64,000 bases of DNA, from positions 21,651 through 85,650 of the IMG/VR virus record IMGVR_UViG_3300005445_000001. One strand, given 5' to 3'. Positions 4,464 to 51,315 of this stretch are shown piece by piece (the stretch's first letter is position 1; every line of letters starts with the position of its first letter). The translations under genes were made by a program, and so were the position numbers. This stretch comes from a virus (taxonomy: Duplodnaviria > Caudoviricetes). Below the pieces are notes generated by a model that ran no database searches, was not told the DNA's origin, and saw only the letters and a list, made by a program, of their open reading frames with translations.

Positions 4464-5135
4464 TTACCGCCGCTTCTTCTTGCCGCCGAGCGCGCGACTC
4501 GCGAGGTAGACGCCGATCCCGAGCCCGCCGATCAGGAGGAGCGGGTTGCCGGTGATCGTGTCCATGATGCCGCCGAGGCCGGAACCGTGAAGGTTCGGGA
4601 ACGACGGCAACGGCACGTTGCGCGCGACGGTCGTGGTGGGCCACGGAGCGCAGACCGCACCGGGCGGACACGACGTGAACCGATAGCCAGGCGGCGGCGG
4701 ACGCGTCGGAAGCTGCGTCGTCAGCACTGGACCGATCGGATACTCGGCGATCGGCACGCCGAGCTGAGCGCCGGAGAGGAACTTGGCGTGCATCGTCTGC
4801 TCCTGCAGGTGATGCAGCGTACTGCCCCAGGTCATCGGGTGGCCGAGCGCGCTAGAACGGATGATCGACTGCCCAGCGGCGGGTGGAGCGATCGTCGAGT
4901 GACGAGCCGTCTCGTAGCCTAGAACGTCACCCCATGTCGGAGGCGAGCTCTGGTCGTACGAGAACATGCTGCCGAGGCCGGAGAGGAACTTCGCCGGGGC
5001 GCTGATGACGGCGCCGAGCAAGCCCTTGACGCCGCCCGACGCTTGTCGCGCGTGGCGGCGCATCATCCAGCGGAATGGTGGGCGCGTCATGCCAATCTGA
5101 GGACCTGACAGATCCATGATGTAACTTAGTGACAT
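4464..5135 (-). CDS. tail-anchored virion membrane protein (GLG motifs, CPPG motif)
   Basis: FLSGLG, HGSGLG, CPPGAVC; C-terminal TM + GGKKKRR. Confidence 0.65.
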   Translation of the reverse strand: MSLSYIMDLSGPQIGMTRPPFRWMMRRHARQASGGVKGLLGAVISAPAKFLSGLGSMFSYDQSSPPTWGDVLGYETARHSTIAPPAAGQSIIRSSALGHPMTWGSTLHHLQEQTMHAKFLSGAQLGVPIAEYPIGPVLTTQLPTRPPPPGYRFTSCPPGAVCAPWPTTTVARNVPLPSFPNLHGSGLGGIMDTITGNPLLLIGGLGIGVYLASRALGGKKKRR

Positions 5136-5138
5136 GAC

Positions 5139-5447
5139 TCACCTTTTCCTTCGACGGTGACCGGACAAGCCGAGTTTGCGCTTGATCCCACCTCCGAATT
5201 TTTGCCACCCGAAGTAGCCGAGCGCCGTCGAACCGGCGAGCACTGCAAGCGTCATCATCCAACCCGGGATCGAGTCGGTGATGTCGCCGAGCGCGCCGGT
5301 GAGGCTCTTCGCCTGGGTCGGGACGACCTTCCAGTACCACGAGCCGTACGTGCCGGGGATCCCCGCGTACTGCACGCGCTCGACGCGGTTCGGATCGAAC
5401 GGGTCGAAGAAGGGCTGTTGTTCGTAGGTTTTGATATACGTGCTCAC
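5139..5447 (-). CDS. tail-anchored membrane protein
   Basis: GGAGG RBS before GTG 5447; LTGALG-D, TM, tail GLSGHRRRKR. Confidence 0.65.
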   Translation of the reverse strand: MSTYIKTYEQQPFFDPFDPNRVERVQYAGIPGTYGSWYWKVVPTQAKSLTGALGDITDSIPGWMMTLAVLAGSTALGYFGWQKFGGGIKRKLGLSGHRRRKR

Positions 5448-24477: not shown

Positions 24478-26130
24478 ATGATGGATCCCGCTGCTCATCG
24501 CTTGTCGATCACGCGCATCCTGAACGATAAGAACTTCAACGCATATGGTCGGAAGCAGGCGGCTTGGAACTACATCATCGAGCAAGAAAACCGCGTAGGC
24601 TCTCGATTCATCCGTACGAAGGATGGCGGTCTCTTCATGCTGATCGGCAGCTCGAGAGACATTGCCCCCATCTCCAAGAGGGGTGGAGATCGAATCACTT
24701 CGTATCTCTATAACATGTATGGCATTGCCGATCATGATGCTTACGGTAAAGCCATCTACAAATTCCTTCACGCACACGCCTACGAGAACGCAACGATCGT
24801 CGAGCTCAGACGGTTTTCTGCGTTCGTCTCTAAATCACGTACGGCTTACCTCTCGGCGTACAACGGAAAGATGTGGAAGATCTCAGGAGACAAAGATCCA
24901 GAGCTAATTTCAAACGGTGAAGATGAAATCTTCTTCGCCGATGACGATGGAGGATTGCCAACACAATCTGATGTTGGCCCTCATGATATCTTGTTCAAAC
25001 AGCTCACAGATCTAAATTACTCCAAATCTGGGATGAGCGGAATCACGCCTCAGCAACAAGCAATGGCATTGATGATCTGGGTGTTTGCTCTTGCTTTCCC
25101 CGATATGATGCCGACGAAGCCGCTGTTGATTCTCGAGGGCGCCGCCGGTAGCGGCAAGAGCGCCGGCATCCAACTGATCCAACTTGCGCTGATGGGAGAC
25201 ATCAGACCGATCATCATCCAAAAACACCATGAAGATGATTTTGGTGTCCTGTTACTTCGTGCCCCAATTGCTATCTTCGACAACACAGATAGCTATATCG
25301 AATGGGTTGCAGATGCAGTGTGTAGCTATACGACTCTTGGCAAATTCATCAAGCGCAAGCTGTATTCCGATGACGAGCAAGTAATCATCAAGCCTCACGC
25401 ATTTATCGCGGTTGCTTCCAAGAATCCAACCTCTTTCCGTCGAGAAGACGTCGCAGACCGTTGTGTGATCCTTCGTCTTGATCGACGAACCGGATTCAAG
25501 AGGATGGGCAAGCTCTGCGAGCAGATCAACTCATTACGGCCAAGGCTTGTTGGAGAGTACCTCTGGTATGTAAATCGAATCATCGAGGAGATTAGATCTG
25601 GCGCGATGGATGAAAGCGATGAGAACGAAACAAGCCGTATGGCCGACTTCGCGACGTTTAGTCGTGTCGTCGCCCGCGTGATGAATTGGAAGCCCGAAGC
25701 GATCGACGAGCTCATGGACGTGTTACAGCGCGAGCGCGACGCGTTCGTGAACGAAGGAGATCCTCTTGTCGAGCTCCTTCGCAAGTGGGTCGCGTACCGC
25801 CCACGATTCGGCCCTGCCAACGTGGGTCGCGAGGTCGCGCTCCAAGCGCTGTTCCTAGAGCTAGAGACCCTTGCCGACGCAAGCGGGATCCAGTTCTACA
25901 AGACGCCCAACACACTTGCCCAAAAACTTCGGTCGCCGCACGTCTCGCGAGACTTCACGATCGAGATGGATGCAACGGGCGGTCACAAAACGTATCGCAT
26001 CTATCGCAAGACTGATCCTCGTCTCGAGGTCATCGATGGCGGGCTCACCTTCGATGAATCAGCAGAGACGTTGACCGAAGAAGAAGATCCGATAGGACCA
26101 GATCTAGAACCCAAGACCAACGAGAAATAG
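24478..26130 (+). CDS. primase-associated SF3-like helicase/ATPase
   Basis: ILEGAAGSGKS Walker A, IFDN Walker B, DRC Arg finger, SRMADF; no primase domain recognised. Confidence 0.75.
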   Translation: MMDPAAHRLSITRILNDKNFNAYGRKQAAWNYIIEQENRVGSRFIRTKDGGLFMLIGSSRDIAPISKRGGDRITSYLYNMYGIADHDAYGKAIYKFLHAHAYENATIVELRRFSAFVSKSRTAYLSAYNGKMWKISGDKDPELISNGEDEIFFADDDGGLPTQSDVGPHDILFKQLTDLNYSKSGMSGITPQQQAMALMIWVFALAFPDMMPTKPLLILEGAAGSGKSAGIQLIQLALMGDIRPIIIQKHHEDDFGVLLLRAPIAIFDNTDSYIEWVADAVCSYTTLGKFIKRKLYSDDEQVIIKPHAFIAVASKNPTSFRREDVADRCVILRLDRRTGFKRMGKLCEQINSLRPRLVGEYLWYVNRIIEEIRSGAMDESDENETSRMADFATFSRVVARVMNWKPEAIDELMDVLQRERDAFVNEGDPLVELLRKWVAYRPRFGPANVGREVALQALFLELETLADASGIQFYKTPNTLAQKLRSPHVSRDFTIEMDATGGHKTYRIYRKTDPRLEVIDGGLTFDESAETLTEEEDPIGPDLEPKTNEK

Positions 26131-26177: not shown

Positions 26178-26384
26178 ATGGGAGCGCATCTCATCAATGG
26201 GGAGTTTCAGAGTGACAAGTATCCAACCACGCCCCGCGGCAAGGTTCCGCTCAGCGTGAAGGACCCAACCGCCCAAGATCTTCTCTGGGAGTATGCTCAA
26301 CGTCGACGATCGGTCGATGCTGAGTTCTCGGCAGATCTCGAGCTAGCGCTCATCAATGCCGGCTACGAGCCATCATTTGGCTAG
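26178..26384 (+). CDS. hypothetical protein
   Basis: 68 aa, codon style matches the genome. Confidence 0.55.
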   Translation: MGAHLINGEFQSDKYPTTPRGKVPLSVKDPTAQDLLWEYAQRRRSVDAEFSADLELALINAGYEPSFG

Positions 26385-26776
26385 TGCCGACCGAAGAAAA
26401 ACCACCACACACCGAGACCAACCGCAGCGACCGCGACCCAACCAAGCGGCGAAAGGCCCACGACTGCTTGTGGTGGTAGCGACACGGGCGTCTGATCGAT
26501 CGGTGGAGGTGGCGGCATCGGAGGTGGAGGCGTCGAGCCGTCCTGTCCGGTCTGGTAGTCACCACCCTGATCGACTGCGGGTGGACGGAGCGGATCCATC
26601 ACGATCGTCGTGCCGTCGGTGTTGATCTGCGCACCGGGAACCGCTACAGCCCGCACCGACGTAGGGAACGTGGGCGTCTGCGGCGTAAAGCCGGGTAGCG
26701 AGGCGAATGAGTACGAGCTCGTACCCGCGGGTGGTACTAGGTCCGGGGAAAGTCCAAGGCCTCGAAATACGAGCAT
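26381..26776 (-). CDS. Pro-rich tail-anchored membrane protein (MLVFRGLG leader)
   Basis: C-terminal LGWVAVAAVGLGVWWFFFGRH; TG-G-TAGGAT 6 nt upstream. Confidence 0.7.
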   Translation of the reverse strand: MLVFRGLGLSPDLVPPAGTSSYSFASLPGFTPQTPTFPTSVRAVAVPGAQINTDGTTIVMDPLRPPAVDQGGDYQTGQDGSTPPPPMPPPPPIDQTPVSLPPQAVVGLSPLGWVAVAAVGLGVWWFFFGRH

Positions 26777-26822
26777 GTTGGGATCCTACCAGATTCTCCT
26801 CGCGGTTTGATAACGTTGCGAA
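26777..26822. promoter_or_regulatory. back-to-back leaderless promoters
   Basis: TG-G-TAGGAT (minus) and TG-A-TAACGT (plus), each 6 nt from a start codon. Confidence 0.65.
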
Positions 26823-26996
26823 GTGGAAGACGACCTCTTAGAGAAGCTGATCAACATCAGCCCCACATGGGCTTTACAGCTGATCAGCGTCGGCCTCAAC
26901 GTGTTCGAGCAGCTTCTGAACTACGTCACCGAGGTGTTCGAGCGCATCGAGCTCTACATGGCGAAGGTCGGCGATGGCCAAGCTCGGGCCGCGTAG
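26823..26996 (+). CDS. 57-aa helical protein (not in ORF track)
   Basis: TG-A-TAACGT 6 nt before GTG; MEDDLLEKLINISPTW... Confidence 0.55.
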   Translation: MEDDLLEKLINISPTWALQLISVGLNVFEQLLNYVTEVFERIELYMAKVGDGQARAA

Positions 26997-30195: not shown

Positions 30196-30384
30196 TCACC
30201 TTGCGTGTTCGAGGATCAGCACGATGCCCAAGACCACAACCAAGCCGCCAAGAATCTTCAGCGGCGTCGGGATCAACGGAGCTGTGTCATCGCCGAGGCC
30301 CGAGAACATGAGCCGATTTGGCCATGCTGGATCGCTCTTCACGACCGGAGACCAAACCGGAAGTCTGTTGCTCGTTCGAAACAT
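30196..30384 (-). CDS. small tail-anchored membrane protein (FSGLG)
   Basis: MFSGLGDD; TM ILGGLVVVLGIVLIL; TG-A-TACGCT 7 nt upstream. Confidence 0.65.
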   Translation of the reverse strand: MFRTSNRLPVWSPVVKSDPAWPNRLMFSGLGDDTAPLIPTPLKILGGLVVVLGIVLILEHAR

Positions 30385-37211: not shown

Positions 37212-37745
37212 CTAGGGCTCGTGCTTCTTCGCCTCTTGGCGCATGAGCTTCGCCGTGCGGATCGCGGTCAGGAGCGCGGACAGCGCGACGGCGAACGTGG
37301 AGACGATCGTCAACGTGAACACCTTTTGGTTGTGCTCGTTGATCGACGCCATCACGTCTTGGATCGAGGGTGGCGCAATGGGCGCCGCGTCGCCGAAGCC
37401 AGGTCGGAACGGGCGATTCCAATCGGCCCACGGGCCCGCCGGACCCCAGTTATTGGGTGGGCGATACGGAGCCGAGAACCGCCCTTCCTTCGTCGTCACC
37501 CACCCCGAGATCATTGGTGTCCAACCGTACTCACTCGTGAGCTCGTCGTCGGTCGGCACCATGCCTAGGCCTGCTCCACCAAGCGGCGTATCGCTGTAAA
37601 ATCCTGCTTCCCCGCGCTGATTATAATAAGGGTCGTCTGGACACAACCATGTCCCACTTCCCCCATAAGTATACCCTATTTCTGAAGGATATCCAGTGTT
37701 TGGAGGTAATTGACCATAGGGCGCCAAGATAATCCCGAGGTTCAT
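37212..37745 (-). CDS. tail-anchored membrane protein
   Basis: GAGLG and PGFG motifs; C-terminal TM + basic tail. Confidence 0.65.
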   Translation of the reverse strand: MNLGIILAPYGQLPPNTGYPSEIGYTYGGSGTWLCPDDPYYNQRGEAGFYSDTPLGGAGLGMVPTDDELTSEYGWTPMISGWVTTKEGRFSAPYRPPNNWGPAGPWADWNRPFRPGFGDAAPIAPPSIQDVMASINEHNQKVFTLTIVSTFAVALSALLTAIRTAKLMRQEAKKHEP

Positions 37746-38404: not shown

Positions 38405-38710
38405 CTATCGACGATGCTTGTAGCCGGCGGCAAAAATGCTCACTAGAATTGCCGCCGTCGCAACGCCCCCGAGCATTAGACCCAACACTGTGTAGTCAAG
38501 TCCCGACTGCCCAAATCCAGTGCCACGCAACTTTGATGCGGTCGCGTACGGATCCCAAAATCGGCCGACCGATGGTGGACCGATCTCGGCGGGAAAAGAA
38601 ACTGGAGGGAACGGTGGTGTGATGTACCAACCCGGCTCGTCGGGTGGGCAAAACGGGAACGGCGCGCCGAGTTGCATCGTGTACGTTCCGGGCGAGACAC
38701 CGACGGTCAT
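38405..38710 (-). CDS. tail-anchored membrane protein
   Basis: LRGTGFG; TM; GYKHRR. Confidence 0.65.
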   Translation of the reverse strand: MTVGVSPGTYTMQLGAPFPFCPPDEPGWYITPPFPPVSFPAEIGPPSVGRFWDPYATASKLRGTGFGQSGLDYTVLGLMLGGVATAAILVSIFAAGYKHRR

Positions 38711-39192: not shown

Positions 39193-39627
39193 TCACTTGA
39201 GCATCATGTAAGCGAGCACCGCTCCGCCACCGAGGACGACGATCATGAGCGGATTCTGGTACCACGGCTTGGGCGGCATCATCGGCATCGGCGTGAGAGG
39301 CACGCACGCGCCTGCTTGGTTAGCGACCGCACCAGGCGGGCACGTTGGACTCTGCGGCGTGAGGAAGTGCTTGAGGAACTCACCGATCGCCGCGCCGCTA
39401 CCAGCGCCGACGTTCGTCCACGTCGATGAGCTCTGTTGCTGTTGCTGTCCACCACCTCCGCCACCCGAGCTCGAGTCGGGAATGGCGTTGGGACAGATCG
39501 CCATGTTGTTACCGGGGTAGCAACAGATCGCGTCGTCACCGGTGCCGATCTGCTGATATGGGCACGTGTCGCCGGCCCAATTTGCGAAACCAAAACCGGA
39601 AGCGGGCGCGCCGCGGAATACGAGCAT
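39193..39627 (-). CDS. Cys-rich tail-anchored membrane protein (MLVFRG leader)
   Basis: SGFG, CPPGAV, PWYQNP-TM. Confidence 0.7.
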   Translation of the reverse strand: MLVFRGAPASGFGFANWAGDTCPYQQIGTGDDAICCYPGNNMAICPNAIPDSSSGGGGGGQQQQQSSSTWTNVGAGSGAAIGEFLKHFLTPQSPTCPPGAVANQAGACVPLTPMPMMPPKPWYQNPLMIVVLGGGAVLAYMMLK

Positions 39628-39655
39628 GTCTCTACTCTATCACGAGCTTGGAATC

Positions 39656-40828
39656 TTAGGGTGAAGCCGCCGGGGCGGGCTTCGGCTTGTCGGATCCACT
39701 GAACAGTAGGAACGTCAACACACCCCCGATGATCAAGATCGGCAACCACGGAATGCTCGTCGGTGCCGGTGCGCACATCTTCGTCGCCATGTTCATCACG
39801 TAGCCGGGCGGGCACTGTGGTAGTTGTCCAGCCTGGCATGCTTGCATGAGCGATTGAGGGTTTTGTCCCTTGGCTGCTCCGCCCGCGATCACCGAGAGGC
39901 CGAGCGCGAGCGCTTGGGCGGCCTCGGGATCTTTGAGTAGCTCGCAAGCCATCCCGCCGATCGCTGCGGCGACATCCTTCGCGAGCTCGAGAATGGTCGC
40001 GACGATGAACTCACCAGCGTTCTCGATGAACCATCCAATACCACTCAACGTGAACCCAGAGCAGCCTTGGTCGTCTTTGATGAATTTGACATTGTCGAGA
40101 TAGCCCTTGACCTCAGCTGGATCCATCTTGCGCGCGCGCATGAAGAGGCCATGTGCGACCTTGCGACTTCCCGACGGCAACGTGCCGACTTTGTCTTTGA
40201 CCCATGCAGGCGTGTATGTATCTGCAGTGAGCTCAGTGTGATCGTCCTTCGTGACGAGGAAGATGCCCCAAACATCTTGCGTGCCTGGGTACATGAAGAT
40301 GTAGAGTGGAATTCCCGGATAGGCCGTCTGCCTTCCAATAGGGTCTGTTGACGTGACCGGATCTTCGATCAGATTGAGAAGCGCCGGAACGGGGTGTCCA
40401 CCATCGACGGTGGGAGGATTCAACCCAGGAACCGATCCCTGGTAAGAGACGCCTGAGAACCGGCCCCATCGTGTGCCGCGCTTGCAGGTGAATGCATTGG
40501 AGTCGTAGCCCTCACCCTTGATCGTCTCCCAAAACGTGCTCGCGGCGTCGATCGTGTCGGCGAGCCACGAGTATTGTGGCGGAACCGATGTGATGGGAAC
40601 GTCGCCACCGTTGACCGGAAACGTCAACGCCAACGGAAGTTGAACCGTTCCGCTCTTGCGCGTTCCGGTCACACCAAAGGCGCCGCCGATCTGTAGCGCA
40701 GCCTCACTAGCCCCGGGCGAGTAGGGCCACGGCAATTGCGTGACCGTCAATTGTCCGTTGGCACCGGCTTGGTACGCCTGTTGGTTCTGAAGGTTGATAC
40801 CGATGATGGAGCCGGCCCAAGTAGCCAT
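39656..40828 (-). CDS. 390-aa membrane-anchored virion protein
   Basis: CPPGY...C motif; C-terminal TM IPWLPILIIGGVLTFLLF. Confidence 0.7.
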   Translation of the reverse strand: MATWAGSIIGINLQNQQAYQAGANGQLTVTQLPWPYSPGASEAALQIGGAFGVTGTRKSGTVQLPLALTFPVNGGDVPITSVPPQYSWLADTIDAASTFWETIKGEGYDSNAFTCKRGTRWGRFSGVSYQGSVPGLNPPTVDGGHPVPALLNLIEDPVTSTDPIGRQTAYPGIPLYIFMYPGTQDVWGIFLVTKDDHTELTADTYTPAWVKDKVGTLPSGSRKVAHGLFMRARKMDPAEVKGYLDNVKFIKDDQGCSGFTLSGIGWFIENAGEFIVATILELAKDVAAAIGGMACELLKDPEAAQALALGLSVIAGGAAKGQNPQSLMQACQAGQLPQCPPGYVMNMATKMCAPAPTSIPWLPILIIGGVLTFLLFSGSDKPKPAPAASP

Positions 40829-40866
40829 GCCGCTAGGGTAACATGACTTGTGTTAACCTACTGATC
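40829..40866. promoter_or_regulatory. back-to-back leaderless promoters
   Basis: TG-T-TACCCT (minus, 6 nt) and TG-T-TAACCT (plus, 7 nt). Confidence 0.65.
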
Positions 40867-41580
40867 GTGTCCGAAGACCGATTTGCAAAGATCTCTGCGT
40901 TCATCGGGATCGGGTTGGTCCTCGTCGGTGGGGTCATGCTCTGGCAACAGCGACGAGCCACGACCAGTTTCAACGGTCTGGGACGCCCGCGCTATCGTCG
41001 AGTCGAAGGAATGGCCGAAGAGGCCCCCGTGATCGATGGGTTCTCGGATGGCAACATGCACACCGAGATCCGCGCGAGCGATGAAATGCCGATCGAGCAA
41101 CGGCTAGCGACCATCCAGCGCAAGATCTACGAAGGGACCAAAGACCCCGAGATGCGCAAGCTAGCGCTCGCGATCACCTCGCAGTGCCCCGAGCGCGATG
41201 GGCTCTGCGAGGCCAAGGCGATCTACAAAGCGGTCAAGAAACGGGTCCGCTACTCTGGTGACATCGCGCCGATCAAGCACCCCAATGGTCAGGTCGAAGG
41301 GATCGATCTCTACCAGAGCGCGCGCCGCACGTGGGAGTTCAAAGCTGGGGACTGTGACGACACGGCGATCCTGATCAGCACCCTGCTTGCGCACAACGGG
41401 ATCACTCCACGTTTGCGCGTGACCGCCGAGGATAAACATAGCGATGACGGTCACATCTACGTGATTGCGCTCCTGCCCAAGTTCAATCCGTCCTACTCTG
41501 TCGCGCTCGATGCGACCTTGCCCGGAAACAAGTTCAACGTGGAAGCGCCGGCGGCGCGCGTGACGGACTTCGACGCATGA
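40867..41580 (+). CDS. membrane-anchored transglutaminase-like Cys protease
   Basis: N-terminal TM then FNGLG; GDCDD (Cys), GHIY (His), ALDAT (Asp); TG-T-TAACCT 7 nt before GTG 40867. Confidence 0.8.
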   Translation: MSEDRFAKISAFIGIGLVLVGGVMLWQQRRATTSFNGLGRPRYRRVEGMAEEAPVIDGFSDGNMHTEIRASDEMPIEQRLATIQRKIYEGTKDPEMRKLALAITSQCPERDGLCEAKAIYKAVKKRVRYSGDIAPIKHPNGQVEGIDLYQSARRTWEFKAGDCDDTAILISTLLAHNGITPRLRVTAEDKHSDDGHIYVIALLPKFNPSYSVALDATLPGNKFNVEAPAARVTDFDA

Positions 41581-41786
41581 TGGACAGCCTCTACAACTTC
41601 GTGAATCCGAACTATGCCGCAGCGCTTACACTCAAGACGCAGTGTGCTGCGTCGCCGGTTAGCTGTGTCGAGATCAACAAGGCGTACGATCTCGAGCTCG
41701 ACATGGCAGTGACTCGCCTGCGCTGGATCGGGTTGGGTCTTTTAGTCGTAGGTGGAATCGCCATTTTCCGACGAGGAAGAGCATGA
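41577..41786 (+). CDS. small tail-anchored membrane protein
   Basis: TM WIGLGLLVVGGIAIF-RRGRA. Confidence 0.6.
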   Translation: MMDSLYNFVNPNYAAALTLKTQCAASPVSCVEINKAYDLELDMAVTRLRWIGLGLLVVGGIAIFRRGRA

Positions 41787-42196
41787 AGAAGAAACCCTAT
41801 CTCACGTTCCTCTCCGGCTTAGGCGATGCCGCCACGATCGATCCTGGCTCGTTCCTTGCTGCGAATCCGACGCCAACCGCGAGCGACGTCGCACAGTTTC
41901 TCGCGAGCGTGCCCAACGCGCAGCGCCCGGAAGCGGCACAAGCACTCGTCGATGCTGGTGTCGATCCCGACGTTGTGCAACACGGTTTGATGTTCGCGAA
42001 CACGCGCACCGGGTTGAGTTGGTCGTGGTTCACCGGCACGCTCACCGTCGCCGCGTCGGCGGCGGCAACGTTTCACGGCTACCGACGAAACAAGTCGGTG
42101 TTCTGGGCCTTGGTGTATGGTCTAGGTGCAATGATGTTCCCGATCGCCACGACCGCGGTCACGTTGGGTCAAGGCTGGGGAAAGCCGAAGCCATGA
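41783..42196 (+). CDS. two-TM membrane protein (LSGLG)
   Basis: FLSGLGDAA; AATFHGYRRNKSVFWA hairpin. Confidence 0.65.
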   Translation: MKKKPYLTFLSGLGDAATIDPGSFLAANPTPTASDVAQFLASVPNAQRPEAAQALVDAGVDPDVVQHGLMFANTRTGLSWSWFTGTLTVAASAAATFHGYRRNKSVFWALVYGLGAMMFPIATTAVTLGQGWGKPKP

Positions 42197-42438
42197 AGCG
42201 CAAGATCAAGTGCCGCAAAGGCGAGAAACGGTTCACCGTGCTTGTTGTGAATCACGATCCCTACGACTCGCATGCGGGCCGATCGTTCGAGCAAGCGTTC
42301 GACCAGGCGAACCCCGATCGGGGTAGCCACATTGAGGTCTACGCGACGTGTGCAATGGATGGTGGCGCGGCGCGCATGCCGGGCGTCTATCGCCAAGGTC
42401 AACTACTGCGGCAGTTCCGCACGAAGAGAGGTGGATGA
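42193..42438 (+). CDS. small basic protein
   Basis: ATGA overlaps both sides; MKRKIKCRKGEK. Confidence 0.55.
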   Translation: MKRKIKCRKGEKRFTVLVVNHDPYDSHAGRSFEQAFDQANPDRGSHIEVYATCAMDGGAARMPGVYRQGQLLRQFRTKRGG

Positions 42439-42755
42439 TGTACTACCGACATCCGCAGCTGGGCCTGATCCCGGACTACCAGTTCTCGACGGATCCCGCC
42501 GTGAACCCCCACATCAACCCGCACGTCACGTACCCCGAAGGGATGTACCAGACGACGACGCAGCCGATCGGGCCGTACTACAATCCCCCACCTCCGCCAC
42601 CGTGTCCGTCGTGCGTCGCGCCCGGAGTAAAAGGACTGGGCATCGACAACCCGTTCGATTCGTGGTGGTGGGAGAATCGGCAATGGCTTGCACTCGGTGC
42701 ACTTGCGGTTGTCGGGATCGGCGCGATCGCGCTGATCGGCGTGGTCCTCAAGTGA
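42435..42755 (+). CDS. Pro-rich tail-anchored membrane protein (MMYYRH leader)
   Basis: VKGLG, SWWWENR-TM. Confidence 0.7.
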   Translation: MMYYRHPQLGLIPDYQFSTDPAVNPHINPHVTYPEGMYQTTTQPIGPYYNPPPPPPCPSCVAPGVKGLGIDNPFDSWWWENRQWLALGALAVVGIGAIALIGVVLK

Positions 42756-44504: not shown

Positions 44505-44649
44505 GTCCGGTCGTCGAATGTTTCGACGTAGTTACGTTACTCGATCTGCTCACTGATGAACAAATCGGGCTCACCCATTATCAACATAAGCTATCGCAAC
44601 TCTTGGGGTTTATTTGTGATCGGACCAGATCTAATTTACTCTGATCGTC

Positions 44650-45183
44650 ATGATGTACTACCGCCACGGCGCAGATATGCACTACATGCGACCCGACGCA
44701 GTCATGCGGACGAGCGTTGTGCAACCGAGTGGCGGGTACTACCCGACTGCCGATGTGCTCGCGGTCGCCAACGAGTTCACCGTGGGAAACTACGCGTTCT
44801 CGCAAGGCAACGTCGCAGATGACGGCATGCCCACGAGTGGAATGAGCGGTCTCGGCTACACGTACTTCCGCGGCCTCGGTCAGGGCGGCGGGCCGAGCTT
44901 CAACCCGTTCAAGAAGCTGTGGCTCATGTTCAAGGCGAAGCGCGCCGCAGCCAAGGCGCAGATGTTCGTCGCCGCAGCGACGGCGCGCGGGATGCGCGGC
45001 CTCGGCGCTGCGTATCCGTACGGCCCCGCGATGGCGATGGGCCCAATGATCAATCCCGACGCGGCGGCGCGGTTCTCGATGCTGACCGCGATGGCAGAGC
45101 GAAACATGCCGATGTCGATCGCGGACTCGTACGGTCCGGCATCGCTGAATCGCTGGAACACCGTTCGTTTCCCGAACGGGTAA
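44650..45183 (+). CDS. virion protein with three GLG motifs (MMYYRH leader)
   Basis: MSGLG, FRGLG, MRGLG; TACTCT 7 nt upstream. Confidence 0.7.
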   Translation: MMYYRHGADMHYMRPDAVMRTSVVQPSGGYYPTADVLAVANEFTVGNYAFSQGNVADDGMPTSGMSGLGYTYFRGLGQGGGPSFNPFKKLWLMFKAKRAAAKAQMFVAAATARGMRGLGAAYPYGPAMAMGPMINPDAAARFSMLTAMAERNMPMSIADSYGPASLNRWNTVRFPNG

Positions 45184-45185
45184 AC

Positions 45186-45371
45186 ATGTCGAAGATCATG
45201 ACGCTATCAGGTGCTGCCGAGCTCGGACGAGAGTCCGGGCGGCAGTGCAAGTGCGTCTACAACCCGCGCACCAAGCGCCACGCCCGACTCTGTTTCGTCG
45301 GGAAGTCCAAACGCAATCGTTCAGGCTGGCAGTTCCAAAAGGGTGGGAGCCAGTTCTGTTCTCGTCGGTAA
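45186..45371 (+). CDS. small basic Cys-containing protein
   Basis: 61 aa, K/R-rich. Confidence 0.6.
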   Translation: MSKIMTLSGAAELGRESGRQCKCVYNPRTKRHARLCFVGKSKRNRSGWQFQKGGSQFCSRR

Positions 45372-45402
45372 CCACCCCAAGGAAACCCCACAGGAGAAAC
45401 CA

Positions 45403-46065
45403 ATGCGTCGTCGAATGCTCGGAAAAGTCGATCTTCTAGGCCTCAACGAGTTTGGCCAGAATCCAGGCCTCAACCCGATCTGGGGCACGCTGATCGGCGG
45501 CGGCGTCTCGGGTCTCACTTCGATCACGCTCGGTCACACGCAGACGGGCAAGCTCGCTGAGAATCGCGAGCTCATCGGTCTCATGGCCGGTCTCGGCACC
45601 GCAGGTGTGATGTACGCGATGAAGTCGACGCGCCATGCGGCGCTCGGCGCGGCCGTCGGTGCGCTCCTCGCGAGCGGTCTGGCGTGGATGGAAAAGGTCA
45701 TGCTGGGCACGGTCCAGTTGCCCGCGACGACCGCAGCGGTCGCTACGCAGGTGGCTGCTCAGGCTGCAGCGGGTGGCGCGCCGCCCCCGGGCACCGCTGG
45801 CGCGTTCGGCATCGCGAACATCCGTCAGCTGGGGATCTCGAATCTTCGTCAGCTCGGCCTCTCGACGGTGGCCAACGTTCCGCACGCGCGCGGCGTTGCC
45901 CCCGGCGCTGGCGTCGCTGGCGTCCAGCTCGGGAATGCTCGTCCGCCGATCAATCTGATGGGTCCGGGCTCGCCCGCGTCGCGTCAGGTCGCGCTCATGG
46001 GTGGCCCGCCGATCCACGGCATCGGTCACGCGTACGGCGCAACGGTCGTGGGTGGTGGTCGCTAA
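45403..46065 (+). CDS. multi-TM virion membrane protein
   Basis: AGGAGA RBS; three Gly-rich TM segments; IANIRQLG-ISNLRQLG repeat; directly before the capsid gene. Confidence 0.7.
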   Translation: MRRRMLGKVDLLGLNEFGQNPGLNPIWGTLIGGGVSGLTSITLGHTQTGKLAENRELIGLMAGLGTAGVMYAMKSTRHAALGAAVGALLASGLAWMEKVMLGTVQLPATTAAVATQVAAQAAAGGAPPPGTAGAFGIANIRQLGISNLRQLGLSTVANVPHARGVAPGAGVAGVQLGNARPPINLMGPGSPASRQVALMGGPPIHGIGHAYGATVVGGGR

Positions 46066-46137: not shown

Positions 46138-46848
46138 ATGGCTGGATCAGTTGGCGTAGCACCAGGAACCTACACTTTCACGCTGCCGAACGGGCACGTC
46201 CTCGCGATCGAGGATTGGATCGACGACAAGCTGTACTCAACGGTGCAGCTGGCGAACGGTCAGTCGATCGCCGTCGAGGCGTTCACCGTCGGCCGTGGTC
46301 TGCAGATCTCGGGCGGCACCCGTACCACCACGCGCGTCGACACGAACGTGCCGCGCTCGGGTGAGAACGGTCTGCCGATGGCCTGGGAGATGTATATCTA
46401 CGGGATCGGGATCAAGGTTACGCGCGTCTGCCGTCCGCAGACGGGCGCGAGCCAACCGGTTCTCGCAGACGGCTCGGGCGCGCTGTCGGATCCTCCGCAG
46501 CTCGTCACGCTGTTCAACATCGATCGCGTGACCTTCATCAACTTCTTCTACAACACGCGTGACTACACCGTCGGCGTGATGCAGGACTACCCGCAGGGTC
46601 ACGGTTACAACGTGTTCTCGACCAACCCCGCGTTCGAGCTCGCGCAGAACGGCATCCCGTCACCGCGCGACCGCAACGCGCTTGTGCTGCCTGTCTGGCT
46701 GCGCGAGCAGCTCGGGTACAAGTGCGTGTTCACGCCGGAAGCCCCGCTCGTGATCTCGCAGCTCGCGAGTGATGGCTCGACCGCGCTCACCTTCGCCGAT
46801 GTGAAGGTCTACGCGTACGGCCTGATCAAGCGTTCGGCCGGCACCTGA
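46138..46848 (+). CDS. putative single-jelly-roll major capsid protein (large subunit)
   Basis: Strong AAGGAG RBS, terminator after; beta-strand pattern LYSTV...DTN...GLP...YIYGIG...PQGHG...NGIP...LPVWL...VKVYAYG; pattern recognition only. Confidence 0.6.
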   Translation: MAGSVGVAPGTYTFTLPNGHVLAIEDWIDDKLYSTVQLANGQSIAVEAFTVGRGLQISGGTRTTTRVDTNVPRSGENGLPMAWEMYIYGIGIKVTRVCRPQTGASQPVLADGSGALSDPPQLVTLFNIDRVTFINFFYNTRDYTVGVMQDYPQGHGYNVFSTNPAFELAQNGIPSPRDRNALVLPVWLREQLGYKCVFTPEAPLVISQLASDGSTALTFADVKVYAYGLIKRSAGT

Positions 46849-50952: not shown

Positions 50953-51315
50953 GTGAGCGACGTTTCTCAAGCGAAGGTGTTGATCGTCGTGTTCGCGATG
51001 CCTCAGTGCCCGGCGTGTCACGAGTATCTGCCTCGATTTTGGAAACAGGTGGAGGGCTTCCAACGTCTCGGCTACCCGTTCGTGCCGTACGCGCCGAGCA
51101 CGAACATCAACCGCGGCGACATCCCGATCCTCGTCTACGACGTCACGTCGAAGGATCCGAGCGTTCAGCAATTTGCTGATCGATTCGAGGTGAGCAGCGT
51201 TCCAGCGACGGTGTTCCTGCCTAAGATGGGCGGCTTCCACAAGCTCGTGGGCGCACAGGACGACGAAACGATCTATCGCCTCTTGCTCGCGGCTACCACG
51301 GTCAACAGCAACTGA
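50953..51315 (+). CDS. thioredoxin-like protein
   Basis: VFAMPQCPAC; FEVSSVPATVF cis-Pro loop. Confidence 0.8.
   Translation: MSDVSQAKVLIVVFAMPQCPACHEYLPRFWKQVEGFQRLGYPFVPYAPSTNINRGDIPILVYDVTSKDPSVQQFADRFEVSSVPATVFLPKMGGFHKLVGAQDDETIYRLLLAATTVNSN

What the first reader, a model, noticed from the sequence alone, without database searches (positions are those of the whole stretch)
40867..41580. Recurring G-[L/F]-G motif in virion proteins plus a membrane-tethered Cys-His-Asp enzyme: candidate proteolytic maturation system
Seen: G-[L/F]-G outside TM segments in at least 11 small ORFs: FLSGLG (4464, 41783), FRGLG (26381, 44650), FSGLG (30196), GAGLG and PGFG (37212), GTGFG (38405), SGFG (39193), FNGLG (40867), VKGLG (42435), MSGLG and MRGLG (44650), QAGLG (50041). 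Variants are GALG (5139), GTLG (3183) and RQLG twice (45403). Unlinked genes share leaders (MLVFRG at 26381/39193; MMYYRH at 42435/44650). The transglutaminase-like gene (GDCDD/GHIY/ALD) has the motif right after its own TM anchor. Established: adenovirus protease cleaves (M/L/I)xGx-G and (M/L/I)xGG-x during maturation, and LSGL-G, MSGL-G and MRGL-G fit this. Inference: the enzyme trims propeptides from virion proteins and may release itself; Gln-Lys cross-linking is the alternative.
Basis: partly seen in the sequence, partly recalled or inferred. Interest (0 to 1): 0.85.

Follow-up and report, generated by a model that had tools for sequence, protein, structure and literature searches.

The report
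Conserved Leu-x-Gly-Leu-Gly tag beside viral cysteine enzyme
An uncultured 86-kb bacterial virus and its relatives carry a short conserved Leu-x-Gly-Leu-Gly tag in many unrelated particle and membrane proteins, beside a conserved membrane-tethered cysteine enzyme. It most likely marks where that enzyme trims them during particle assembly, as in adenovirus but with a different enzyme fold, though no cutting has been shown.

Summary
Observation confirmed: every listed string is present. In this genome alone the enrichment is marginal: G[LF]G 35 against 24.5 expected, and GLG ranks 145th of 768 tripeptides.

Comparison with relatives makes it real.
- Across six whole genomes of the clade, L.GLG occurs 51 times against 7-16 for each of the five permuted arrangements. 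It is the top non-low-complexity pattern, in 32 protein families (z 14.7).
- 28 of 47 non-membrane instances lie within -5 to +10 kb of the enzyme gene.
- In ortholog alignments the L-G core is a conserved island. It ends variable-length N-terminal leaders, sits at a fusion junction, flanks optional basic-helix inserts, and precedes C-terminal anchors.

The enzyme (40843-41580) has a transglutaminase-like, papain-type fold. Its Cys171/His204/Asp223 triad is invariant in 120 of 120 homologs. It lies upstream of a jelly-roll capsid candidate in 23 of 25 loci and carries the tag in its own flexible tether. Some homologs carry an intein immediately before the catalytic Cys.

Cleavage is inferred, not shown. 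This scan noted the same theme before on other viral genomes. Verdict: a new variant of viral maturation proteolysis, confidence about 0.45.

The parts
40843..41580 (+). Membrane-tethered transglutaminase-like (papain-fold) Cys-His-Asp enzyme, 245 aa. An alternative GTG start at 40867 gives 237 aa.
   Evidence: Pfam PF01841 at E=1.6e-6. More than 250 homologs, mostly on contigs of about 78-94 kb. AF2 model pLDDT 89.6. Foldseek best matches are a putative Cys protease 3isr, LapG, TglA, PNGase and CPR-C4.
40885..40941 (+). N-terminal TM anchor (residues 15-33, Gly-rich), followed by a basic juxtamembrane stretch.
   Evidence: Hydropathy scan. The model shows one long helix over residues 11-45. 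G22 and G24 are nearly invariant.
40969..40983 (+). FNGLG motif in the tether between the TM helix and the catalytic domain.
   Evidence: It lies in the model's lowest-confidence 10-residue block (residues 41-50, mean pLDDT 60). In 118 homolog linkers LG occurs in 98 (shuffle mean 33.3, max 48) and G[LFM]G in 61 (shuffle mean 6.9).
41347..41361 (+). GDCDD, with the catalytic Cys171 at 41353-41355.
   Evidence: Cys is invariant in 120 of 120 homologs. In 19 longer homologs an intein with a homing-endonuclease domain sits immediately before this Cys.
41452..41511 (+). His204 (41452-41454) and Asp223 (41509-41511) of the triad.
   Evidence: Both are invariant in 120 of 120 homologs.
41783..42196 (+). 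Candidate substrate. A 137-aa protein with an N-terminal leader ending in LSGLG-D (41810-41824) and a C-terminal membrane hairpin.
   Evidence: Orthologues keep an LG followed by acidic residues near the N-terminus.
42435..42755 (+). Candidate substrate. A 106-aa tail-anchored protein with a leader ending in QLG (42453-42464), then the conserved block LIPDYQF. A second site, VKGLG, lies at 42627-42641, before the anchor.
   Evidence: L9 and G10 are invariant while the leader length varies from 2 to 17 aa. The second site is kept in most orthologs.
44650..45183 (+). Candidate substrate. A 177-aa protein in which MSGLG (44842-44856) and FRGLG (44866-44880) precede, and MRGLG (44992-45006) follows, a basic amphipathic helix.
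   Evidence: L-x-G-L-[G/R] or a near variant is present at the first site in 11 of 12 orthologs, and the basic helix follows it in all. The family carries the motif in 5 of 5 genomes.
45343..46065 (+). Gly/Ala-rich protein with degenerate repeats IRQLG (45820-45834) and LRQLG (45844-45858). The start codon is uncertain (45211, 45343 or 45403).
   Evidence: Relatives have two to three tandem copies of LNGLG-[IM]-P at this place.
37212..37745 (-). Candidate substrate. A 177-aa anchored protein with three sites: N-terminal MNLG then IILAPYG, GAGLG (37563-37577) before VPTD, and PGFG-D (37392-37406) about 25 aa before the anchor.
   Evidence: All three sites are conserved in 11-15 of 14-15 orthologs. 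In L017 and L021 the protein is fused behind a 38405-like domain, with GLG or LG at the junction. Optional basic inserts are flanked by two LG sites.
38405..38710 (-). Candidate substrate. A 101-aa anchored protein with LRGTGFG (38510-38524) just before the TM helix.
   Evidence: Orthologues have LKGLR, LRGLG, LLGLG and LMGLR at the same place.
39193..39627 (-). 144-aa Cys-rich anchored protein with the leader MLVFRG and ASGFG (39589-39603).
26381..26776 (-). 131-aa Pro-rich anchored protein with the leader MLVFRGLG (26753-26767).
30196..30342 (-). 48-aa anchored protein with MFSGLG-DD (30292-30306).
4464..5135 (-). 223-aa anchored protein with FLSGLG (4971-4985) and GSGLG (4572-4586).
5139..5447 (-). 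102-aa anchored protein with LTGALG-D (5286-5303).
   Evidence: The G001 orthologue has LSGLG-D and the G005 orthologue LKGLG at the same place.
46138..46848 (+). Most conserved structural gene. A 236-aa beta-sandwich that is the probable jelly-roll capsid protein. It carries no motif.
   Evidence: AF2 pLDDT 65.7. VIA-align best matches are the SPV1 capsid protein (Z 7.2), HHIV-2 (6.8), HCIV-1 (6.4) and P23-77 VP17/VP16 (5.9/5.5), all below the tool's Z 8 caution line. The enzyme gene lies 3.5-6 kb upstream in 23 of 25 loci.

Best explanation
Phi-x-G-L-[G/R], with an invariant L-G core, is a processing signal on membrane, core and minor particle proteins of this virus clade. The TM-tethered transglutaminase-fold Cys171-His204-Asp223 enzyme is the protease that reads it.

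Proposed sequence of events (all inferred):
1. The enzyme and the anchored precursors are gathered on the same membrane patch during assembly.
2. The enzyme cuts at or next to L-G. This removes short N-terminal leaders, exposing hydrophobic N-termini that methionine aminopeptidase cannot expose. It also separates fused domains and may free basic amphipathic peptides that are flanked by two sites.
3. The enzyme can cut its own tether, which carries the same signal.

Shown here: the motif is conserved and clustered, the enzyme is a conserved core gene with an intact triad, and the motif sits in the enzyme's own tether.

Inferred: the catalytic activity is proteolysis, the motif is the cut site, the exact scissile bond, and the virion location of the proteins.
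For: (1) The motif is real at clade level. L.GLG occurs 51 times against 7-16 for the five permuted arrangements. An unbiased k-mer scan ranks it as the top non-low-complexity pattern, in 32 families, z 14.7. In 12 near loci it is 49 against 4-12.

(2) It clusters by the enzyme gene: 28 of 47 instances lie within -5 to +10 kb. Families carrying it in most genomes all lie in the 37-49 kb module, while replication families have 0-1.

(3) The site anatomy is typical of cleavage.
- L9 and G10 are invariant after leaders of 2-17 aa in the 42435 family.
- GLG or LG sits at the junction where 38405-like and 37212-like domains are fused in L017 and L021.
- Optional basic inserts are bounded by two LG sites.
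- Sites lie in otherwise variable linkers before the anchors.

(4) The enzyme.
- Pfam Transglut_core, with the triad and a Cys115/Cys122 pair invariant in 120 of 120 homologs.
- The nearest solved folds include the proteases LapG and CPR-C4 and a putative Cys protease.
- It is syntenic with the jelly-roll gene in 23 of 25 loci.
- An intein sits immediately before the catalytic Cys in 19 homologs, which marks that site as conserved and needed.

(5) The enzyme's own tether carries LG in 98 of 118 homologs against a shuffle mean of 33, and it is the flexible segment of the model.

(6) The Peptidase_S78, ClpP and adenain (Peptidase_C5) profiles found nothing in the genome. A separate GH25 muramidase with a peptidoglycan-binding domain covers lysis.

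(7) The pattern equals the adenovirus pVI site IVGL|G (PMC4246237).
Against: - There is no direct evidence of any cleavage, and nothing shows that these proteins are in the particle.
- Transglutaminase-fold enzymes also act as transamidases, deamidases, glycanases and isopeptidases. Sequence cannot tell these apart.
- Some orthologs have the L-G only three residues from the initiator Met (MLG...). That is a poor protease substrate and could mean the L-G is part of the mature functional N-terminus.
- Tandem LNGLG-IP repeats (45343 family) look as much like multivalent docking sites as like cut sites.
- By the positive-inside rule the enzyme's domain is cytoplasmic, while anchored proteins with basic C-tails could face the other way, so the topologies are unresolved.
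- In this genome alone the enrichment is weak.
- Counts across six genomes include homologous sites and are not independent events.
- Only three protease profiles were searched, so an unrecognised second protease is not excluded.
Confidence: 0.45

Rival explanations
1. The motif is a docking or assembly signal that is not cut. A short peptide in flexible segments is recognized by a capsid, scaffold or membrane-assembly partner, possibly the enzyme acting only as a receptor, and recruits otherwise unrelated small membrane proteins into the particle.
For: The motif lies in variable, probably disordered segments and near termini, as docking motifs do. Two to three tandem LNGLG-IP copies in the 45343 family suit multivalent binding to an oligomeric capsomer. 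L-G is kept even with a leader of only M or Mx. Another shared N-terminal peptide, VGV[AS]PGT[YT]T, links the jelly-roll protein and the 38405 family and looks like a docking strand.
Against: This does not explain why the motif marks a fusion junction and both ends of optional inserts, nor why a conserved hydrophobic residue that cannot become N-terminal without endoproteolysis always follows it. It does not explain a catalytically intact Cys-His-Asp enzyme as a core neighbour carrying the motif in its own tether. Docking and later cutting are also not exclusive; my own knowledge is that T4 capsid-targeting sequences do both.
Confidence: 0.25
2. The motif is a processing site, but it is read by another protease (host or unrecognised viral). 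The transglutaminase-like enzyme does something else, for example acting as a virion-associated cell-wall isopeptidase for entry or exit, or as a membrane or protein modifying enzyme.
For: The phage pseudomurein endoisopeptidases PeiP and PeiW share the fold (E about 1e-2). The TM helix is Gly-rich, like signal-anchor-release domains of some endolysins (sequence). Large parts of the genome have no recognisable function.
Against: A GH25 enzyme with a PG_binding_1 domain is already present. The enzyme's tether carries the motif far above chance. The motif clusters next to the enzyme gene. By the positive-inside rule the catalytic domain faces the cytoplasm, not the wall.
Confidence: 0.12
3. The enzyme is a true transglutaminase that cross-links particle proteins through Gln-Lys isopeptide bonds. 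The motif is only a flexible Gly-rich hinge with no signal function.
For: Membership of the Pfam transglutaminase core family and the same triad as cross-linking transglutaminases.
Against: The motif has no conserved Gln or Lys. Its variable second position is most often N, R, L, S, A or V. A plain hinge would not hold one ordered arrangement (L.GLG 51 against 7-16 for the permutations), nor an invariant L-G. The closest solved folds are hydrolases rather than cross-linkers, although that ranking is weak.
Confidence: 0.06
4. The recurrence is a by-product of composition and shared ancestry: Gly- and Leu-rich small membrane proteins, with paralogy and domain shuffling among them, and no dedicated function.
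For: The single-genome statistics are weak. Domain shuffling among the small proteins is real; for example the 41783-type C-terminal hairpin appears on L009 and L012 orthologs of 42435. Shared leaders could reflect gene conversion.
Against: The permuted-arrangement control and per-protein shuffles remove composition. 32 families carry the pattern. The motif persists as a conserved island where flanks have diverged beyond alignment. All four leader differences are synonymous.
Confidence: 0.07

Closest known systems
Adenovirus protease (adenain, MEROPS C5) and its precursor code (M/I/L)XGX|G and (M/I/L)XGG|X, including the pVI site IVGL|G that frees the pVIc cofactor (PMC4246237)
   Same: One viral cysteine protease would be expected to read a short Gly-containing code on many unrelated minor, core and membrane-lytic particle proteins but not on the main capsid protein. 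The full motif Phi-x-G-L-G has the same pattern as IVGL|G. Basic peptides bounded by two sites recall pX/mu and pVI.
   Different: There is no C5 homolog in the genome. The candidate enzyme has the transglutaminase-like fold and is membrane-tethered. Many sites have only x-x-L-G and break the adenain rule. The host is bacterial, and the capsid candidate is a single jelly roll at best.
Bacterial transglutaminase-like cysteine proteinases (BTLCP), e.g. LapG, MEROPS C93
   Same: They share the fold and the Cys-His-Asp triad, and they are among the best structural matches (4u65_E at E=1.2e-4, 4fgo at 8e-4). My own knowledge is that LapG is a site-specific protease acting at small residues of a membrane-associated substrate.
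   Different: The Pfam scan returned only PF01841, not the LapG family. My own knowledge is that LapG is a soluble periplasmic, calcium-dependent enzyme that cuts one adhesin at a di-alanine. Here the enzyme is viral and TM-anchored, the motif is L-G, and there are many putative substrates.
Leader peptidases of the transglutaminase fold, such as lasso-peptide B proteins like McjB (own knowledge; cited in the reference list of PMC10318531)
   Same: A transglutaminase-fold Cys protease removes short N-terminal leaders at a defined small-residue site.
   Different: Those enzymes act on one ribosomal peptide precursor in a biosynthetic cluster, not on a set of virion proteins. No sequence relationship was tested here.
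Prohead proteases of tailed phages (HK97 or T4 gp21 type, PhiKZ gp175) with their cleavage codes and capsid-targeting leaders
   Same: A virus-encoded protease in the morphogenesis module, short shared leaders, and many substrates.
   Different: Those are serine proteases of the herpesvirus-assemblin fold that cut after Glu (own knowledge). The Peptidase_S78 and ClpP profiles found nothing here, and the Terminase_6N profile found nothing either.
Internal-membrane, tailless jelly-roll viruses (Sphaerolipoviridae such as P23-77, HHIV-2 and HCIV-1; Portogloboviridae such as SPV1; PRD1-like viruses)
   Same: The best, though weak, structural matches of the 236-aa core protein are their capsid proteins. 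There are many small single-TM proteins.
   Different: Those genomes are 10-45 kb and no maturation protease is described for them. A 2019 review of membrane-containing phages does not contain the words protease, proteolytic, cleavage or processed. This genome is 85.6 kb with direct terminal repeats.

Membership tests
Transglutaminase-like superfamily (Pfam PF01841, papain-like fold) | Match to the family profile above the curated cut-off | tested here: met
   28.8 bits against a cut-off of 23, E=1.6e-6, residues 116-208.
Transglutaminase-like superfamily (Pfam PF01841, papain-like fold) | Cys-His-Asp catalytic triad in the canonical order | tested here: met
   C171, H204 and D223 are invariant in 32 of 32 and in 120 of 120 homologs.
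Transglutaminase-like superfamily (Pfam PF01841, papain-like fold) | Fold similarity to solved members | tested here: met
   Model pLDDT 89.6. Foldseek probability 1.00 to 3isr, LapG, TglA, PNGase and CPR-C4, E 1e-4 to 1e-3, TM about 0.3-0.4.
Transglutaminase-like superfamily (Pfam PF01841, papain-like fold) | Demonstrated hydrolytic rather than transamidating activity | not testable with these tools
   Needs an enzyme assay.
BTLCP / LapG (MEROPS C93) | Sequence membership of the LapG-type family | tested here: not met
   The Pfam scan at E<=0.01 returned PF01841 only. The structural match is moderate.
BTLCP / LapG (MEROPS C93) | Cleavage at a di-alanine site of an adhesin | tested here: not met
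   The recurrent motif here is L-x-G-L-G with an L-G core.
Adenain (MEROPS C5) | Homology to Peptidase_C5 | tested here: not met
   No match to PF00770 in the whole 85.6-kb genome at E<=0.1.
Adenain-type cleavage code | (M/I/L)-X-G-X|G or (M/I/L)-X-G-G|X at the sites | tested here: inconclusive
   Full sites such as LSGLG, MRGLG and IAGLG fit type 1. Core-only sites such as PQLG-L, MNLG-I and QLGD-IPTD do not.
Viral maturation protease with a substrate code (functional class) | Observed cleavage of precursors at the motif | not testable with these tools
   No proteomic data; the virus is uncultured.
Phage endoisopeptidase or lysin of the transglutaminase fold (PeiW/PeiP, C71) | Structural or sequence similarity, and a role as the lysis enzyme | tested here: inconclusive
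   Foldseek E about 1e-2 to 5e-2. A GH25 enzyme with a PG_binding_1 domain is encoded elsewhere.
Single jelly-roll capsid proteins of internal-membrane viruses (Helvetiavirae-like) | Fold match of the core 236-aa protein | tested here: inconclusive
   Z 7.2 to 5.5 to the SPV1, HHIV-2, HCIV-1 and P23-77 capsid proteins, below the tool's Z 8 caution line, with model pLDDT 65.7. Atlas leads to PRD1 P3 and P2 clusters reach only 0.76-0.77.

The most novel reading that the evidence does not exclude
Large tailless, membrane-containing bacterial viruses have their own adenovirus-like maturation system, built on a different protease fold. A membrane-tethered transglutaminase-fold cysteine protease reads a Phi-x-G-L-G / L-G code on a dozen or more anchored and core proteins. 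It removes leaders, splits fused precursors, releases basic amphipathic peptides comparable to mu or pVIc, and finally frees itself. Together with the similar cases this scan has noted in other viral genomes, this would be a widespread, undescribed class of viral maturation proteases, convergent with adenain.
Probability: 0.4. Interest if true: 0.8.

Novelty: new variant of a known kind. Interest (0 to 1): 0.68.

Why it matters
Proteolytic maturation with a shared cleavage code is known for adenoviruses, for poxviruses, asfarviruses and giant viruses, and for tailed phages. To my knowledge it is not known for prokaryotic jelly-roll or internal-membrane viruses. The held literature has no paper that combines transglutaminase-like, jelly-roll, capsid and protease.

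If the inference holds:
- It adds a new protease fold to virus maturation.
- It gives a simple sequence rule for annotating precursors and mature ends in a large clade of uncultured viruses of about 80 kb, with more than 250 enzyme homologs.
- It is an example of convergence on nearly the same peptide code as adenovirus, Phi-x-G-L|G.

It is directly testable by co-expression of two genes. The intein placed immediately before the catalytic Cys is an independent sign that this residue matters to the virus.

Tried and rejected
- A structure-based complex test of the catalytic domain (A1, residues 58-245) with the N-terminal 45 residues of the 42435 family (A3) gave no verdict: score 0.01 against a mark of 0.32, with no controls run. 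It is evidence neither for nor against binding.
- PHROGs gave no family for ten structural-region proteins. Pfam gave nothing for the 236, 165, 106, 297, 337 and 390-aa proteins.
- blastn of 39.0-46.9 kb against 50,697 phage records found nothing.
- phmmer against PDB sequences for the 542-aa and 699-aa proteins found nothing useful. Atlas leads suggest the 542-aa Walker-A protein is a DUF5906/VapE-like replication helicase and not a packaging ATPase, so no packaging enzyme was identified.
- Host assignment failed. The three genome-collection hits sit in MAGs labelled Actinomycetes, Polyangiales and Tessaracoccus, and one protein in a Tepidisphaeraceae MAG. These labels are inconsistent and probably reflect binning of viral contigs.
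- The far clade (capsid-protein identity 37-40%) is dominated by collagen-like repeats, so its motif usage could not be read.
- The SAR-endolysin idea for the Gly-rich TM was set aside, because a GH25 lysin exists and the juxtamembrane charges point the domain to the cytoplasm.
- A DNA-word explanation was rejected: 55 different 9-mers encode GLG.
- Look-up of earlier findings by sequence found no look-alike of the enzyme.
Full report
CONTEXT

The window is bases 21651-85650 of an 85,650-bp IMG/VR virus record with direct terminal repeats, rated complete. I called 162 genes with a codon-bias model. Recognisable functions are:
- a family-A DNA polymerase fused to a UDG-like domain, an SNF2 helicase, a D12 methyltransferase, and two pectate-lyase-like spike proteins;
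- an AAA_24 protein and a PD-(D/E)XK nuclease;
- endonuclease VII, an HTH protein, a thioredoxin-like protein and a GDSL hydrolase;
- outside the window, an integrase, a pilin-like protein, glycosyltransferases and a GH25 muramidase with a peptidoglycan-binding domain.

The proteins of the 37-51 kb block match no PHROG and almost no Pfam family. The Terminase_6N, Peptidase_S78, ClpP and adenain profiles found nothing in the genome.

THE OBSERVATION

So are the shared leaders MLVFRG (26381/39193) and MMYYRH (42435/44650). At DNA level the paired leaders differ at four positions and all four changes are synonymous. That points to selection on the peptide and not on a DNA signal.

In this genome alone the statistics are modest:
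- G[LF]G is 35 against 24.5 expected from per-protein shuffles (z 2.2).
- [FLMIV]xG[LF]G is 16 against 6.4 (z 3.7).
- GLG ranks only 145th of 768 tripeptides.
- Several GLG lie inside TM helices, and QAGLG of 50041 lies at a helix edge.

COMPARATIVE EVIDENCE

The enzyme has more than 250 homologs, mostly on contigs of about 78-94 kb. I fetched 22 loci around enzyme homologs, 25 around homologs of the 236-aa core protein, and five further whole genomes.

Counts across the six genomes:
- L.GLG occurs 51 times, against 7, 10, 10, 13 and 16 for the five other orderings of the same four residues.
- An unbiased scan of all tripeptides, tetrapeptides and a.bcd pentamers puts GLG (155 against 87, z 7.3, 81 families) directly after GGG, PPP and RRR.
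- The same scan puts L.GLG (51 against 7.6, z 14.7, 32 families) as the best pattern that is not low complexity and is spread over many families.
- In 12 near loci the count is 49 against 4-12 for the permutations.
- GLG is written with 55 different 9-mers.
- 28 of the 47 instances outside TM helices lie from 5 kb before to 10 kb after the enzyme gene. That is about 18% of the genome.
- The families that carry the motif in most genomes are the enzyme itself and the 44650, 45343, 42435, 41783 and 48545 families. Replication families carry it in none or one genome.

These counts include homologous sites, so they are not independent events. The permuted-order control and the spread over 32 families still exclude composition as the cause.

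ANATOMY OF THE SITES

The conserved core is L-G. The full form is Phi-x-G-L-[G/R], where x is often S, R, N, K, Q or A.

1. 42435 family. An N-terminal leader of 2 to 17 residues ends in L-G, both invariant. It is followed at once by the conserved block [LIMF]-[IV]-P-x-[WY]-Q-[FY]. Longer leaders show the full form (VAGLG, IAGLG). A second site (SLxG-LG) precedes the anchor.
2. 37212 family.
   - The protein starts M(x)LG-[IV][IV]L[AST]PYG.
   - In L017 and L021 the same protein is fused behind a domain of the 38405 type, with GLG or LG exactly at the junction.
   - An internal L-G lies one or two residues before the conserved IPTD. In five orthologs a basic amphipathic insert sits there, bounded by an L-G (or S-G) site on each side. 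In four orthologs the insert is absent and a single L-G remains.
   - A third site (LSGLG, LRGLG or LSGLR, followed by D/E) lies about 20 residues before the anchor in an otherwise unalignable linker.
3. 44650 family. A conserved N-domain is followed by L-[SQA]-G-L-[GR] and then a basic amphipathic helix of the same type as the 37212 inserts. In about 5 of 12 members a second site follows the helix; the window's own protein has FRGLG before it and MRGLG after it.
4. 45343 family. It has two to three tandem LNGLG-[IM]-P units, degenerate in this genome as RQLG.
5. 38405, 41783 and 5139 families. The motif is kept at the same place while the flanks diverge. For example LTGALG-D here corresponds to LSGLG-D and LKGLG in relatives.
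6. Many genome-specific small proteins carry it 5-15 residues from the N-terminus.

The residue after L-G at the N-terminal sites is L, I, M, F or V. For L, I, M and F, methionine aminopeptidase would not expose such a residue (established knowledge). That gives a reason to keep even a minimal leader such as M-x-L-G.

THE ENZYME

- ORF 40843-41580 has an alternative GTG start at 40867 and matches Pfam Transglut_core.
- In 120 homologs Cys171 (GDCDD), His204 and Asp223, plus a Cys115/Cys122 pair, are invariant.
- The AlphaFold model (pLDDT 89.6) has a long N-terminal helix (residues 11-45, containing the TM segment) and a compact alpha/beta domain.
- Foldseek finds the transglutaminase-like hydrolases: putative Cys protease 3isr, LapG, TglA, PNGase, CPR-C4 and, more weakly, PeiP and PeiW.
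- The 41-50 block of the model has the lowest block confidence (mean pLDDT 60) and holds FNGLG.
- In 118 homolog linkers (median 20 residues, majority identity 0.49 against 0.74 for the domain), L-G occurs in 98 (shuffle mean 33.3, maximum 48 in 500). G[LFM]G occurs in 61 (shuffle mean 6.9).
- The gene lies 3.5-6 kb upstream of the 236-aa core gene in 23 of 25 loci. One of the two exceptions is a truncated contig.
- Nineteen homologs of about 550 aa carry an intein with a LAGLIDADG-type endonuclease. It is inserted between GGD and CDD, immediately before the catalytic Cys, which serves as the +1 residue. Inteins characteristically sit in conserved active-site motifs of proteins their carriers need (established knowledge), so this is independent support that the Cys is functional.

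WHAT KIND OF PARTICLE

The 236-aa protein is the most conserved structural gene. Its model is only moderately confident (pLDDT 65.7) and is a beta-sandwich. Its best matches are capsid proteins of internal-membrane viruses: SPV1 at Z 7.2, HHIV-2 at 6.8, HCIV-1 at 6.4, and P23-77 VP17/VP16 at 5.9/5.5. All are below the tool's caution line of Z 8. Atlas leads to PRD1 P3 and P2 clusters are weak, at 0.76-0.77. A tailless membrane-containing particle is therefore plausible but not established, and the label 'virion proteins' for the motif carriers remains an inference from synteny and membrane anchors.

INTERPRETATION

The most economical reading is a maturation-protease system with three elements:
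- a membrane-tethered cysteine protease of the transglutaminase fold;
- a short code on many unrelated anchored, core-like or minor proteins, but not on the main capsid candidate;
- the same code in the enzyme's own tether.

The full motif has the same pattern as the adenovirus pVI site IVGL|G that frees the pVIc cofactor (PMC4246237). However, the genome has no adenain and many sites have only the L-G core. So this works like the adenovirus system but is not a member of it. A papain-type enzyme with a hydrophobic S2 pocket and a tight S1 pocket would fit cutting after L-G. This is inference and the scissile bond is unknown.

Points against:
- No cleavage has been seen.
- The fold also supports non-proteolytic chemistry.
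- Minimal leaders (MLG...) and tandem repeats fit a docking signal at least as well.
- The membrane topologies of enzyme and substrates are unresolved.

Gln-Lys cross-linking at the motif is unlikely because the motif has no conserved Gln or Lys. A lysis role is less likely because a GH25 lysin is present.

PRIOR KNOWLEDGE AND EARLIER NOTES

The paper library holds no article combining transglutaminase-like, jelly-roll, capsid and protease. A survey of prokaryotic double jelly-roll viruses and a review of membrane-containing phages do not mention proteases at all.

Earlier notes of this scan describe the same theme in other viral genomes: a short Gly motif in virion proteins next to a transglutaminase-fold Cys enzyme. 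Another first-stage note describes it on an overlapping window of this genome. I treat those as leads only. They suggest the phenomenon is broader than this clade.

VERDICT

The finding is a new variant of a known kind: viral maturation proteolysis with a cleavage code, but with a new protease fold and a new virus group. Confidence in the cleavage mechanism is about 0.45.

Noticed in passing
Homologs P0121-P0139 of window 40843-41580 (e.g. P0122, P0125); insertion point corresponds to window 41353: Nineteen homologs of about 550 aa carry an intein (Pfam Intein_splicing, LAGLIDADG_3). It is inserted between GGD and CDD, immediately before the catalytic Cys of the GDCDD motif, which serves as the +1 residue.
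   Followed up: partly
window 46138-46180 (+) and 38670-38710 (-); L017:434-1171, L021:3843-4994: The jelly-roll capsid candidate and the unrelated 38405 family begin with the same peptide, (M)xxVGV[AS]PGT[YT]T. In some relatives the 38405-type domain is fused to the 37212-type protein.
   Followed up: partly
window 44880-44990 (44650 ORF) and orthologs of 37212 in L002, L011, L012, L014, L015: The same kind of basic amphipathic helix ([FL]xx[LI][RK]xx[FW]Wxxx[KR]A[RK]) occurs in two unrelated families. Each copy is bounded by L-G sites, and it is present or absent between orthologs like a mobile cassette.
   Followed up: partly
L009:11123-11539 and L012:11125-11517 compared with window 41783-42196: Domain shuffling among the small membrane proteins. 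Two orthologs of the 42435 family end in the YHGY[RK]RN...GFGK membrane hairpin that in this genome belongs to the 41783 protein.
   Followed up: no
window 26747-26836 (-) / 39598-39687 (-) and 42375-42464 (+) / 44590-44679 (+): The first six codons of two pairs of unlinked genes are nearly identical at DNA level (about 17 of 19 bases). All four differences are synonymous, and the upstream DNA is unrelated.
   Followed up: partly
window 45186-45371 (+): A 61-aa, very basic protein with four Cys. It is conserved at 40-73% identity in 13 loci and sits between the 44650 and 45343 genes. It may be a DNA-condensing core protein.
   Followed up: no
window 50953-51315 (+): A thioredoxin-like protein (CPAC motif, Pfam Thioredoxin_2 at 6e-8) lies inside the structural block, next to several Cys-rich small proteins.
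   Followed up: no
L048:37-747 (genome bases 37-747, before the window): A GH25 muramidase fragment with a PG_binding_1 domain lies at the very start of the record. The GH25 match begins at profile position 73, so the gene may be cut by the arbitrary start of the terminally repeated record.
   Followed up: no
window 24502-26130 (+): Apart from the AAA_24 protein, this is the only other Walker-A protein in the genome. It resembles DUF5906/VapE-like helicases (atlas score 0.94), so no packaging ATPase, terminase or portal has been identified in this complete genome.
   Followed up: partly
window 39656-40828 (-): A 390-aa anchored protein lies directly beside the enzyme gene. It has no detectable homolog in the related complete genome G001 and carries no motif, so it is a variable cargo slot in an otherwise syntenic block.
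   Followed up: partly
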